From the human T2T-CHM13v2.0 reference genome, Homo sapiens: a DNA stretch of 64,000 nt. The notes under the pieces were generated by a model. That model did no database searches. It saw only the letters and a list, made by a program, of their open reading frames with translations, and was not told where the DNA came from. The position numbers and the translations under genes are program-made. Below, one piece after another: positions 42,093-42,950 of this stretch (positions are counted from its first letter, which is position 1; the number at the start of each line of letters is the position of its first letter). Where the stretch lies: the NCBI GenBank assembly GCA_009914755.4, contig CP086569.2, forward strand, positions 416,001 to 480,000, given 5' to 3'.

Positions 42093-42950
42093 CAGGCATG
42101 GTAGTGCATGCCTGTAGTTTCAGCTACTTGGGAGGCTGAGGCGGAGGATGACTTGAGCCCAGGAGTTGCAGGCTGCCGTGAGCCATGATCAGGTCACTGC
42201 ACTTCAGCCTGGGCAACAGAAGCAAGACCCCATCTCTACAAAAATAAAAAAAATAACCAGGCATGGTGGTGCTTGCCTGTAGTTCCAGCTACTTGGGAGG
42301 CTGACGCAGGAGGATGACTTGAGCCCAGGAGTTGGAGGCTGCTGTGAGCCATGATCAGGCCACGGCACTCCAGCCTGGGCAACAGAGCAAGATCCCATCT
42401 CCACAAAAATAAAAAAGTTATCAAGGCATGGTGGTGCATGCTTGTAGTTTCAGCTACTTGGGAGGCTGAGGCAGGAAGATGACTTGAGCCCAGGAGTTGG
42501 AGGCTGCAAGTGAGCCATGATCAGGCCACTGCACTCCAGCCTGGGCAACAGAGACAGACTCCATCTCTACAAAATAAATAAATAAATAAATAAATAAATA
42601 AATAAATAAATAAATAACCAGGCATGGTGCTGCATGCCTGTAGTCCCAGCTACTTGGGAGGCTGAGGCAAGAGGATCTCTTGAGCCCAGGAGTTGGAGGC
42701 TGCTGTGAGCCATGATCAGGTCACTGCACTCCAGCCTGGGCAACAGAGCAAGACCCCATCTCTACAAAAATAAAAAAAAAACAGGTATGGTGGTGCATGC
42801 CTGTATTCCCAGCTACTTGGGAGGCTGAGGCAGGAGGATGACTTGAGCCCAGGAGCTGGAGGCTGCTGTGAACGATGATCAGGCCACTGCACTCCATCCT
42901 GGGCAACAGAGCAAGACTCTGTCTCTATAAAAAAAAATAATAAAAATAAA
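42093..42950 (+). mobile_element. Tandem array of five Alu right-arm-type (FRAM-like) monomers, each about 165-185 bp with its own A-rich linker
   Basis: The unit accaggcatggt[ag]gtgc[at]tgcctgtag[t]t[tc]cagctacttgggaggctga[gc]gc[ag]gaggatgacttgagcccaggagttg[cg]aggctgc[ct]gtgagccatgatcagg[tc]cac[tg]gcact[tc]cagcctgggcaacaga[ag]caagacccatctc[tc]acaaaaataaa starts at about 42093, 42255, 42425, 42610 and 42785. Confidence 0.85.

What the first reader, a model, noticed from the sequence alone, without database searches (positions are those of the whole stretch)
42093..42950. Five tandem free-right-arm-like Alu monomers downstream of two intact Alus
Immediately after the Alus at 41510-41787 and 41788-42090 there are five head-to-tail right-arm-type units. 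Each is about 165-185 bp (ccaggcatggtggtgcatgcctgtagt[tc]ccagctacttgggaggctgaggcaggaggatgacttgagcccaggagttggaggctgc...cagcctgggcaacagagcaagacc plus an A-rich tail). None has a left arm. Divergence between copies is a few percent, and the tails vary: (a)n, (aaat)n, (ataa)n. This is the mirror image of the left-monomer array at 29.7 kb.
Basis: seen in the sequence. Interest (0 to 1): 0.55.

Follow-up and report, generated by a model that had tools for sequence, protein, structure and literature searches.

The report
Alu right arm amplified in place
Five head-to-tail copies of an Alu right half are real, but they are local DNA duplications inside one old Alu insertion rather than separate "free monomer" insertions; this is an ordinary, probably neutral by-product of Alu's internal repeat structure in a region very rich in tandem repeats.

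Summary
Window 42091-42953 has five head-to-tail right-arm units of 165, 165, 196, 163 and 174 bp. They differ pairwise by 7-11%, not "a few percent", and by at least 18% from the other in-window right arms.

They are not free monomers. One 16-nt direct repeat (AAAATGTACCCAG[T/C]TG, 41477-41492 and 42954-42969) brackets a single composite: left arm, right arm R0, then five more right arms. The "second intact Alu" (41788-42090) is an AluS that landed in the first junction and has its own target-site duplication (TSD).

All 12 consensus CpGs are destroyed in every unit, to the same product in at least 4 of 5 units. The copied template was therefore an old, decayed genomic copy.

Each internal junction is a left-arm terminus (TCTCTAC) plus a 15-17-nt mid-linker, not a poly(A) tail. 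The box-to-box period is 163-166 bp, matching the 166-bp spacing of the homologous 3' boxes of the two Alu arms.

Best reading: unequal exchange or slippage between a left-arm box and a right-arm box, then expansion, tens of millions of years ago.

This is a known kind of element (an Alu-derived tandem repeat). Four other Alus in the window also carry extra monomers, and 37% of the window is tandem repeat. No primate or haplotype comparison was possible.

The parts
41477..41492 (+). 5' copy of the flanking direct repeat (putative target-site duplication) AAAATGTACCCAGTTG
   Evidence: family D5. 13 nt are exact and 15 of 16 match the copy at 42954-42969. Shuffled flanks reach 13 or more in 4 of 3000 trials. 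It starts with AAAA, as L1-endonuclease targets usually do (established knowledge).
41491..41630 (+). Left arm plus mid-linker of the host AluJ-like element; the first ~25 nt are badly decayed
   Evidence: family D3 aligns 41492-41550 to the 5' end of the neighbouring AluS at 71%. Non-CpG divergence 10/81 (positions 26-118) or 18/98 (whole arm).
41631..41756 (+). R0: right-arm body of the host element (8-nt deletion near its 5' end)
   Evidence: 21% from the unit consensus; 16.4% non-CpG divergence from AluJo against 5-8% for the units. It is the only sequence that ever enters the unit clade in bootstraps.
41757..41787 (+). 5' half of junction j01: left-arm-type terminus (CCCATTTCTAC) plus linker AAAAATAAAAAATTTA, interrupted by the AluS
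   Evidence: 83% identical to the junction consensus and the same 17-nt linker once the AluS is removed.
41788..42090 (+). Full-length AluS inserted into junction j01, with its own A-tail and TSD (AAAAATAAAAAATTTA / AAAAATAAAAATTTA)
   Evidence: Closest to AluSx (memory consensus): 29/279 all sites, 10/231 non-CpG.
42091..42255 (+). Unit U1 (right-arm body + left-type terminus + 17-nt linker)
42256..42420 (+). Unit U2
42421..42616 (+). Unit U3; its linker has expanded into (AAAT)11 (42572-42617)
42617..42779 (+). Unit U4
42780..42953 (+). Unit U5 plus terminal A-rich tail (GACTCTGTCTCTATAAAAAAAAATAATAAAAATAAAGAT)
   Evidence: The CpG-decay product at the terminus (TG) differs from all internal junctions (CA).
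42954..42969 (+). 3' copy of the flanking direct repeat AAAATGTACCCAGCTG
   Evidence: family D5.

Best explanation
The array arose in place by DNA-level tandem duplication inside a single Alu-derived composite. It is not a series of monomer insertions.

The two arms of an Alu are diverged copies of each other. Each ends in the same ~25-nt box (CCAGCCTGGGCAACA.AGC.AGAC), and the two boxes lie 166 bp apart. A misaligned exchange between a left-arm box and a right-arm box (unequal sister-chromatid or homologue crossover, or replication slippage or template switching) joins a right-arm body to a left-arm terminus plus mid-linker. That duplicates a ~165-bp unit: terminus, linker, right-arm body. 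Once two near-identical units exist, further unequal exchanges expand the array. Here the result is R0 plus five units.

The template was already an old copy with its CpGs depleted. The expansion was burst-like and happened tens of millions of years ago, at roughly the age of the AluS that later, or at about the same time, inserted into the first junction. One linker afterwards grew an (AAAT)11 microsatellite.

The array is most likely functionally neutral.

Shown: the tandem structure, the single flanking repeat, the shared CpG decay, the left-type junctions, and the 163-166 bp period. Inferred: the exchange mechanism, its timing, and neutrality.
For: (1) Unit clade. Units are 7.1-11.4% apart but at least 17.9% from the other in-window right arms compared. 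U1-U5, with at most R0 added, form a clade in 100 of 100 bootstraps.

(2) Shared CpG decay. All 12 CpGs of the right-arm consensus are lost in all five units (60 of 60 cells), to the identical product in at least 4 of 5 units at all 12 sites. The unit consensus differs from AluJo at 17 of 140 positions, 13 of them at CpG sites. So a decayed genomic copy was the template.

(3) Left-type junctions. After the box, all six right arms of the composite carry a TCTCTAC-type terminus. This is seen in 19 of 30 left arms and 0 of 17 right arms elsewhere in the window (Fisher p = 1e-5).

(4) Junction length. Internal A-rich junctions are 17, 17, 17, 47 (17 plus the AAAT expansion) and 15 nt, with the pattern AAAAATA.AAAAA..T.A. 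Mid-linkers elsewhere in the window have a median of 18 nt (17 of 24 are 17-19 nt). Ordinary right-arm tails run 4-47 nt with sd 12.

(5) Period. Box-to-box spacing is 164 (after removing the AluS), 166, 166, 195 and 163 bp. The L-box to R-box distance is 166-167 in three Alu consensuses, the same 166-bp internal periodicity described in PMC3592446.

(6) One flanking repeat brackets the left arm, R0, the AluS and U1-U5.

(7) Positive control. About 640 bp upstream, a 5'-truncated right-arm insertion (41322-41450) has a pure A25 tail and a crisp 15-nt TSD, AAAAAATGAAGTGTG. No array unit shows either feature.

(8) Other register. Other Alus in the window show the complementary 135-bp register with right/left hybrid monomers.

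(9) No adjacency effect. Adjacent and non-adjacent unit pairs both average 9.1% divergence (computed from the matrix), which fits a burst followed by stasis.

(10) Free monomer families were silenced on the anthropoid stem. Later monomer-like copies are attributed to internal priming or recombination (PMC5059674).
Against: R0 has about 2.5 times more lineage-specific non-CpG changes than the units (16-17 versus 4-7; binomial p = 0.007-0.09). Its CpG-decay products match the units at only 5 of 11 comparable sites. A simple 'one Alu, right arm amplified' history therefore has a clock problem.

The predicted switch within R0 from foreign to array-like sequence near the box (27% versus 11% mismatch, best at about 41726) is not significant (permutation p = 0.18).

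The terminal tail after U5 also reads TCTCTAT. The model does not predict this, so it must be put down to chance in an A-rich tail or to conversion.

The first 25 nt of the left arm match Alu at only 12 of 25 positions, so a full-length left arm abutting the TSD is probable but not certain.

No orthologous or haplotype sequence could be obtained.
Confidence: 0.75

Rival explanations
1. Two-element variant of the same mechanism. An older Alu (left arm plus R0) owns the flanking TSD. A younger AluJ-type element then inserted into or next to its A-tail. An exchange between the R0 box and the newcomer's left-arm box deleted the newcomer's left-arm body, leaving R0, then a left-type terminus and linker, then the new right arm. 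The same kind of box-to-box exchange then amplified that unit.
For: The relative-rate excess in R0 and the left arm. Different CpG-decay products in R0 and the units at 6 of 11 sites, and an 8-nt deletion private to R0. The best change-point falls just upstream of the R0 box, in the predicted direction. Alu insertion into older Alu tails happens in this very composite: the AluS.
Against: It needs one more insertion and one more deletion than the single-Alu history. The change-point is not significant (p = 0.18). R0 is the only one of 35 other right arms that ever joins the unit clade, which hints at common origin. An early first duplication followed by long independent decay of R0 gives the same CpG pattern. 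The counts are small and the reference consensus is from memory.
Confidence: 0.3
2. Serial independent retrotransposition. Five FRAM or 5'-truncated Alu copies each inserted into the A-tail of the previous one, as the AluS did.
For: A-rich tails are favoured L1-endonuclease targets, and the AluS shows that this junction was hit once. A-rich TSDs would be hard to see after about 9% divergence. The outer TSD would still flank everything.
Against: Identical CpG-decay products at 12 of 12 sites and several shared non-CpG changes. A signature unique to the array within the window. Junctions are 15-17-nt mid-linkers preceded by a left-arm terminus, with no room for a poly(A) plus a TSD. Post-amplification divergence is only 3-6%, although free monomers were silenced early in anthropoids. 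Right arms lack the left arm's A and B box promoter (PMC4859970). A truly independent truncated insertion 640 bp away looks quite different, with an A25 tail and a perfect 15-nt TSD.
Confidence: 0.04
3. The array was born during a single retrotransposition event. The L1 reverse transcriptase repeatedly switched template from the mid-linker back to the 3' end of Alu RNA, writing several right arms in one target-primed reverse transcription (TPRT) event.
For: One TSD pair brackets the composite. Each junction lies at an A-rich linker, where re-priming is conceivable. The near-star relationship of the units.
Against: All arms would then be the same age as the insertion, yet the left arm and R0 are far more diverged than U1-U5 are from each other. 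The units' common ancestor had already lost all 12 CpGs and gained transversions such as TTCGAG to TTGGAG and ATCGCG to ATCAGG, unlike an active source RNA. The junctions carry the left-arm terminus, which a jump from linker to poly(A) tail would not produce.
Confidence: 0.04
4. The whole multi-unit block was formed at another locus and arrived here by segmental duplication or as a retrocopy of a longer transcript.
For: This cannot be excluded without a genome search. The window is extremely rich in duplications.
Against: The block is bounded exactly by an Alu 5' end and an A-rich tail inside a 13-16-nt AAAA-initiated direct repeat, as expected for an ordinary Alu insertion. No second copy exists in the window. 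Local expansion is the pattern reported for the Alu-derived arrays examined in PMC3389668.
Confidence: 0.05

Closest known systems
TE-derived tandem repeats / Alu-derived minisatellites and satellites (Jurka & Gentles 2006, as cited in Ahmed & Liang 2012, PMC3389668)
   Same: A piece of an Alu is repeated head to tail by local duplication. The units are each other's closest relatives, and expansion is in situ rather than by transposition.
   Different: Most reported Alu-derived tandem repeats have about 2.3-2.4 units and were catalogued at 95% identity or more. The worked example there is a 52-bp piece of AluJo. Here the unit is a whole right arm plus mid-linker (165 bp), there are 5-6 copies, identity is only 89-93%, and the phase is set by the Alu's own arm-to-arm homology.
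FRAM (free right Alu monomer) family
   Same: Right-arm-type 7SL-derived monomer sequence with the 31-nt right-arm segment, about 165-175 bp with an A-rich end. RepeatMasker would probably label the units FRAM or partial AluJ (my expectation, not tested).
   Different: FRAMs are stand-alone ancient retroposed monomers. These units have no poly(A) tail or TSD of their own, are joined by Alu mid-linkers, share post-insertion decay, and diverged from one another only about as much as an AluS has from its consensus at non-CpG sites.
Alu/Alu unequal homologous recombination (Alu recombination-mediated deletions and duplications; e.g. PMC2041999, PMC6071635, both listed)
   Same: Exchange within a short stretch of Alu homology produces a chimeric junction and a gain or loss of the interval between the misaligned partners.
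   Different: The partners here are the two arms within one element, or two abutting elements, 166 bp apart rather than two separate Alus kilobases apart. The product is a monomer array, not a gene-scale copy-number variant.
Recently generated Alu monomers by recombination or internal priming (Kojima 2011, Mol Biol Evol 28:13; cited; full text not held)
   Same: Monomer-sized Alu pieces arising after the free-monomer families went extinct, through recombination involving the A-rich linker or tail rather than through monomer source genes.
   Different: That work, as cited, concerns the generation of single monomers. I could not read it to see whether multi-copy right-arm arrays are described.
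Left-arm and hybrid-monomer arrays in the same window (29.7 kb, 51 kb, 21.5 kb, 20.8 kb)
   Same: Extra monomers inside one Alu, old (about 6-23% between units), consistent with exchange between the two arms.
   Different: Those use the 5'-half register (period 130-136, or 158 for one non-homologous join) and give left-type or right/left hybrid monomers without the 31-nt segment. The 42 kb array is the only one in the 166-bp 3'-box register, and it is the largest.

Membership tests
FRAM (free right Alu monomer) | Right-arm-type 7SL-derived monomer sequence (contains the ~31-nt right-arm-specific segment) | tested here: met
   All five units align end to end with Alu right arms, including GCTGC.GTGAGCCATGATCAGG.CACTGCACTCC.
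FRAM (free right Alu monomer) | Stand-alone retroposed copy with its own poly(A) tail and its own target-site duplication | tested here: not met
   Junctions are 15-17-nt mid-linker-type sequences preceded by a left-arm terminus. One direct repeat flanks the whole composite. An independent truncated right-arm insertion nearby, with an A25 tail and a 15-nt TSD, serves as contrast.
FRAM (free right Alu monomer) | Age: activity before or around the origin of dimeric Alus, silenced on the anthropoid stem (PMC5059674) | tested here: not met
   Units are only 2.9-6.4% from their common ancestor, similar to the 4.3% non-CpG divergence of the inserted AluS. The ancestor itself was already a decayed copy.
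FRAM (free right Alu monomer) | Diagnostic consensus positions that separate FRAM from AluJ right arms (Repbase/Dfam) | not testable with these tools
   No Dfam, Repbase or RepeatMasker available. My memory of the FRAM consensus is not reliable enough to use.
TE-derived tandem repeat (Ahmed & Liang 2012) | Two or more head-to-tail copies of a unit derived from a transposable element | tested here: met
   TRF and alignment: five full units plus the array-type 3' end of R0.
TE-derived tandem repeat (Ahmed & Liang 2012) | Units are each other's best matches (local duplication rather than transposition) | tested here: met
   Within the window: nearest non-unit right arm at 0.179 or more, against 0.114 or less within the array. 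The clade appears in 100 of 100 bootstraps allowing R0. Not testable genome-wide.
TE-derived tandem repeat (Ahmed & Liang 2012) | At least 95% identity among units (that survey's inclusion threshold) | tested here: not met
   Identity is 88.6-92.9%. The array would have been missed by that catalogue, so its base rates do not apply directly.
Intra-Alu unequal exchange between arms (3'-box register) | Chimeric junction: right-arm body continues into a left-arm terminus plus mid-linker | tested here: met
   TCTCTAC-type terminus in 6 of 6 array boxes, against 19 of 30 left arms and 0 of 17 other right arms. Linker length 15-17 nt against a median of 18 for mid-linkers.
Intra-Alu unequal exchange between arms (3'-box register) | Repeat period equals the spacing of the misaligned homologous segments (166 bp) | tested here: met
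   Periods 164, 166, 166, 195 (166 + 29 of AAAT expansion) and 163, against 166-167 in the consensuses. The 166-bp Alu periodicity is described in PMC3592446.
Intra-Alu unequal exchange between arms (3'-box register) | The pre-duplication state (ordinary dimer) exists at the orthologous site in an outgroup | not testable with these tools
   No primate genomes available. Scans of metagenome and prokaryote contig collections for the flank and the signature gave 0 hits.
VNTR (copy-number-polymorphic tandem repeat) | Unit number varies among human haplotypes | not testable with these tools
   No population or long-read data. The 9% divergence without an adjacency effect argues against recent turnover, except perhaps in the (AAAT)11 tract.

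The most novel reading that the evidence does not exclude
The array is one symptom of a regional process. In this tandem-repeat-dense stretch (37% TRF coverage, possibly subtelomeric), Alu dimers are repeatedly turned into monomer arrays in both possible arm-to-arm registers: 135 bp at 21.5, 29.7 and 51 kb, and 166 bp at 42 kb. There is also a non-homologous 158-bp case at 20.8 kb and a whole-Alu tandem array at 53 kb. In total, five of roughly 40 Alu insertions are affected. If that frequency is well above the genome average, the Alu's built-in dimer homology would be acting as a common seed for the birth of new satellites or VNTRs wherever unequal exchange or fork stalling is frequent. The 166-bp right-arm register would then be a rarely noticed class of such births.
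Probability: 0.3. Interest if true: 0.45.

Novelty: new member of a known kind. Interest (0 to 1): 0.3.

Why it matters
On its own the array matters little. It is an old, probably neutral, Alu-derived tandem repeat.

It has practical value as a worked example. Runs of "FRAM" or partial-Alu annotations next to an Alu can be one element that expanded internally. That affects Alu counts, age estimates, TSD-based insertion calls and the mapping of structural variants.

It also shows how the phase of a new ~165-bp repeat can be fixed by homology between the two Alu arms. The other register (135 bp) is represented nearby.

If the clustering of five such Alus in 64 kb reflects a real regional excess, it would link Alu architecture to tandem-repeat birth in VNTR-rich, possibly subtelomeric, DNA. 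That could be tested genome-wide.

Tried and rejected
(1) Independent copies of the locus. Exact scans of metagenome contigs and genome contigs with a unique 30-nt 3' flank and with the 31-nt array signature all gave 0 hits. This is uninformative, because human DNA is probably scarce in those collections.

(2) Rfam gathering-threshold scan of 41200-43100: 0 hits. No known structured RNA family is involved.

(3) My first chance control for the flanking repeat used random window pairs 1480 bp apart. It was contaminated by Alu-Alu and microsatellite matches (132 of 3000 at 13 or more). I replaced it with shuffles (4 of 3000).

(4) I first read 41493-41515 as non-Alu filler between the TSD and a 5'-truncated Alu. 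I rejected this in favour of a decayed full-length 5' end, because the spacing is exact and family D3 aligns it to an Alu 5' end. Identity there is only 12 of 25.

(5) Change-point test for a recombination breakpoint in R0: right direction and place, but p = 0.18. Not used as evidence.

(6) Bootstrap of U1-U5 alone gave only 180 of 300. The sole intruder is R0.

(7) The internal branching order of the units is unresolved and star-like. No higher-order (two-unit) periodicity is supported.

(8) Kojima 2011 could not be read. Searches for multi-monomer or trimeric Alus found no specific description in the held library.

(9) Comparison with the 0.18-0.40% Alu tandem-repeat base rate of PMC3389668 was dropped, because that survey required 95% unit identity or more.

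(10) Locus identification from ORFs was abandoned. The long ORFs are translated repeats, and no convincing exon was seen.
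Full report
OBSERVATION

The sequence at 42091-42953 consists of five head-to-tail Alu right-arm units. TRF reports a 165-bp period with 4.1 copies, plus overlapping rows of period 196 and 163 that reach 42946. The repeat finder recovers the same family (D1).

I set the unit boundaries at:
- U1 42091-42255
- U2 42256-42420
- U3 42421-42616
- U4 42617-42779
- U5 42780-42953

As an internal control I collected the other full-length right arms in the window with a BLAST probe. The five units differ from one another by 7.1-11.4% (mean 9.1%). The nearest right arm outside the array is 17.9% away.

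Bootstrap support for U1-U5 alone is only 180 of 300. In every replicate that broke the clade, the single intruder was the right arm of the Alu just upstream, which I call R0. U1-U5 with at most R0 added is therefore recovered in 100 of 100 replicates.

WHAT SURROUNDS THE ARRAY

A 16-nt direct repeat, AAAATGTACCCAG[T/C]TG, lies at 41477-41492 and 42954-42969 (D5). Thirteen bases are exact. Shuffled flanks reach 13 or more in 4 of 3000 trials. My first control, using random window pairs, was contaminated by Alu-Alu matches and is discarded.

The 5' copy abuts the start of an Alu left arm. Alu position 26 aligns at 41516, so position 1 projects to 41491. The first 25 nt are badly decayed (12 of 25 identical), although family D3 aligns 41492-41550 to an Alu 5' end. 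The 3' copy follows directly after the A-rich tail of U5.

So one putative target-site duplication brackets left arm, linker, R0, five more right arms and a tail.

The "second intact Alu" at 41788-42090 is a full-length AluS. It is closest to AluSx: 29/279 over all sites and 10/231 at non-CpG sites. Its own TSD is AAAAATAAAAAATTTA / AAAAATAAAAATTTA. Removing it restores a junction between R0 and U1 that looks like all the other junctions.

THE TEMPLATE WAS A DECAYED GENOMIC COPY

All 12 CpG dinucleotides are destroyed in all five units. At each of the 12 sites the product is the same in at least four of the five units. Several products are not simple CpG transitions, for example ATCGCT to ATGACT, TTCGAG to TTGGAG and ATCGCG to ATCAGG.

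The unit consensus differs from AluJo at 17 of 140 positions, 13 of them at CpG sites. Each unit then differs from the unit consensus by 2.9-6.4%. That pattern requires copying of one already decayed DNA sequence. It is not repeated retroposition from an active source.

The array-specific 31-mer occurs nowhere else in the window.

THE JUNCTIONS ARE ALU MID-LINKERS

After the conserved box CCTGGGCAACAGAG, every internal junction reads GA(C/T)CCCAT(C/T)TC(T/C)AC, followed by AAAAATAAAAAA..TA(A), and then (A)CCAGGCATGG. That is the left-arm terminus plus the canonical A5TACA6 linker and the TTAGCC start of the right arm, allowing for CpG decay and a C-to-A change.

Within the window, a TCTCTAC-type terminus follows the box in 19 of 30 left arms and in 0 of 17 right arms outside the composite. 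It follows all six boxes of the composite (Fisher p = 1e-5).

The A-rich junctions are 17, 17, 17, 47 and 15 nt long; the 47 is 17 plus the (AAAT)11 expansion. Mid-linkers elsewhere have a median of 18 nt, with 17 of 24 between 17 and 19. Ordinary right-arm tails range from 4 to 47 nt with sd 12.

A truly independent 5'-truncated right-arm insertion lies 640 bp upstream (41322-41450). It has a pure A25 tail and a perfect 15-nt TSD, AAAAAATGAAGTGTG. No array unit shows either feature.

PERIOD AND MECHANISM

The two Alu arms are diverged copies of one another. The right arm carries a 31-nt extra segment, so the 5' halves of the arms lie 135 bp apart and the 3' halves 166 bp apart. PMC3592446 describes these two periodicities, and I measured 134-135 and 166-167 in three consensuses.

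The box-to-box periods in the array are 164 (with the AluS removed), 166, 166, 195 (166 + 29 nt of AAAT expansion) and 163.

A misaligned exchange between a left-arm 3' box and a right-arm 3' box predicts exactly what is seen. A right-arm body runs into a left-arm terminus and linker, and the repeat unit is about 166 bp. Once two near-identical units exist, further unequal exchange or slippage can expand the array.

Adjacent and non-adjacent unit pairs are equally diverged, both averaging 9.1% (from the matrix), and the internal tree is unresolved. This fits a burst of expansion followed by stasis.

Post-amplification divergence is about 4.5-4.9% per unit, close to the 4.3% non-CpG divergence of the inserted AluS. 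On the conventional Alu timescale (my knowledge: AluS around 30-40 Myr) the expansion is tens of millions of years old. This timing is an inference.

WHAT DOES NOT FIT CLEANLY

R0 is 21% from the unit consensus. It has 16.4% non-CpG divergence from AluJo, against 5.2-7.8% for the units. A relative-rate test gives 16-17 private changes in R0 against 4-7 in a unit (p = 0.007-0.09). R0 shares the units' CpG-decay product at only 5 of 11 comparable sites and has a private 8-nt deletion.

There are two possible readings. Either the first duplication happened soon after insertion and R0 then decayed unusually fast, or the left arm plus R0 is an older element. In the second case a second AluJ-type element landed in its tail, and an exchange between the R0 box and the newcomer's left-arm box preceded amplification.

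The second history predicts a switch in R0 near the box. The best change-point is at about 41726 (27% mismatch upstream, 11% downstream), but it is not significant (p = 0.18). I give this variant about 0.3. Both histories share the left-box by right-box exchange.

The terminal tail after U5 also contains TCTCTAT, which neither history predicts. I regard this as unexplained.

RIVALS

- Serial insertion of free monomers into preceding tails. It is contradicted by the shared decay, the linker-type junctions, the young inter-unit divergence, and the early silencing of free monomers in anthropoids (PMC5059674).
- Template switching during one retrotransposition. It is contradicted by the age gap between left arm plus R0 and the units, and by the decayed state of the units' ancestor.
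- Origin at another locus. It cannot be excluded without a genome search.

COMPARISON WITH WHAT IS KNOWN

Alu-derived tandem repeats formed by local duplication are established (Jurka & Gentles 2006, as cited in PMC3389668; Ahmed & Liang 2012, PMC3389668). That survey required 95% unit identity or more and found a mean of about 2.3-2.4 units, so this older five-to-six-unit array would not have been listed.

Recombination-generated Alu monomers are attributed to Kojima 2011, which I could not read.

I found no description in the held library of right-arm arrays in the 166-bp register. That is absence of evidence only.

I therefore file this as a new member of a known kind. It is not a member of the FRAM family in the sense of free retroposed monomers.

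CONTEXT

37% of the window lies in TRF arrays, 29% with period 10 or more. Four other Alus carry extra monomers:
- 29700-30385: four left arms then one right arm, period 133-135, 8.5-17.6% apart.
- 51055-51607, minus strand: left arm, two right/left hybrid monomers, right arm.
- 21503-21925: left arm, right/left hybrid, right arm, period 135, 94% matches.
- 20797-21225, minus strand: an extra hybrid monomer, period 158, 93% matches.

A whole-Alu-plus-spacer array of period 377-410 lies at 53133-54391.

VNTR density of this order is typical of subtelomeric DNA (PMC7608644). I could not place the window on a chromosome.

Whether five such Alus out of roughly 40 is a real excess is the most interesting open point.

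LIMITS

- No primate orthologues, human haplotypes, Dfam or RepeatMasker were available.
- External scans returned nothing, and Rfam returned nothing.
The key arguments (unit clade, shared states among units, junction type against in-window left and right arms, linker and tail lengths, flanking repeat) rest on in-window comparisons that do not depend on those consensuses.

Noticed in passing
window 29700-30385 (+): An Alu with four tandem left arms (periods 134, 134, 135, 133; pairwise 8.5-17.6% apart) followed by one right arm. This is the 135-bp-register counterpart of the 42 kb array. A long (CTTT)n-type block starts about 290 bp downstream (30670-31100).
   Followed up: partly
window 51055-51607 (-): An Alu made of a left arm, two hybrid monomers (right-arm-type 5' half, left-arm-type 3' half, no 31-nt segment; the second has an internal 24-nt duplication GCTGAGGTGGGAGGATCACTTGAG x2) and a full right arm. 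TRF period 130.
   Followed up: partly
window 21503-21925 (+): A three-monomer AluS-like element: left arm, then a hybrid that starts like a right arm (AGGCGTGGTGGCAGGTGCCTGTAATCCCAGC) and continues as a left arm, then a right arm. TRF period 135, 94% matches. It looks like a textbook unequal exchange between the 5' halves of the arms and is younger than the 42 kb array.
   Followed up: partly
window 20797-21225 (-): A three-monomer Alu. About 83 nt of right-arm 5' sequence is joined out of register to the left-arm 3' part (CTTGAGGTCAGGAGTTCAAGACCAGCC...), then linker and a full right arm. TRF period 158, 93% matches. The join appears non-homologous.
   Followed up: partly
window 53133-54391: Tandem array of whole Alus plus a ~80-110-bp spacer (period 377-410, about 3.2 copies, 77-87% matches), seen by TRF and in the regular spacing of BLAST hits at 52.9-54.3 kb.
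   Followed up: no
window 43247-44200: A ~950-bp (TA)n-rich, imperfect AT-dinucleotide block begins about 290 bp 3' of the array. Similar AT-rich arrays lie at 6605-8642, 10988-11394 and 46816-46984. Such tracts can stall replication forks (general knowledge), which might favour nearby duplications. This was not tested.
   Followed up: no
whole window: 37% of the 64 kb lies in TRF arrays (29% with period 10 or more). Examples: a 34-nt minisatellite x59 at 35756-37743, GATA/GATG-type arrays at 15554-16435 and 18496-19711, GGA-rich arrays at 21934-22821, and GA-rich arrays at 59926-61128. Most long ORFs are translated repeats. The density suggests VNTR-rich, possibly subtelomeric, DNA. The locus was not identified.
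   Followed up: partly
window 41307-41465: A 5'-truncated Alu right-arm fragment (41322-41450) with a pure A25 tail and a perfect 15-nt TSD, AAAAAATGAAGTGTG (41307-41321 and 41451-41465). I used it as an internal example of what an independent partial right-arm insertion looks like.
   Followed up: yes
window 42898-42953: The terminal tail of the array (GACTCTGTCTCTATAAAAAAAAATAATAAAAATAAAGAT) also contains a TCTCTAT motif and can be loosely aligned to a mid-linker. No other right-arm tail in the window has this (0 of 17). It is unexplained: chance, conversion from internal junctions, or an array that once continued.
   Followed up: partly
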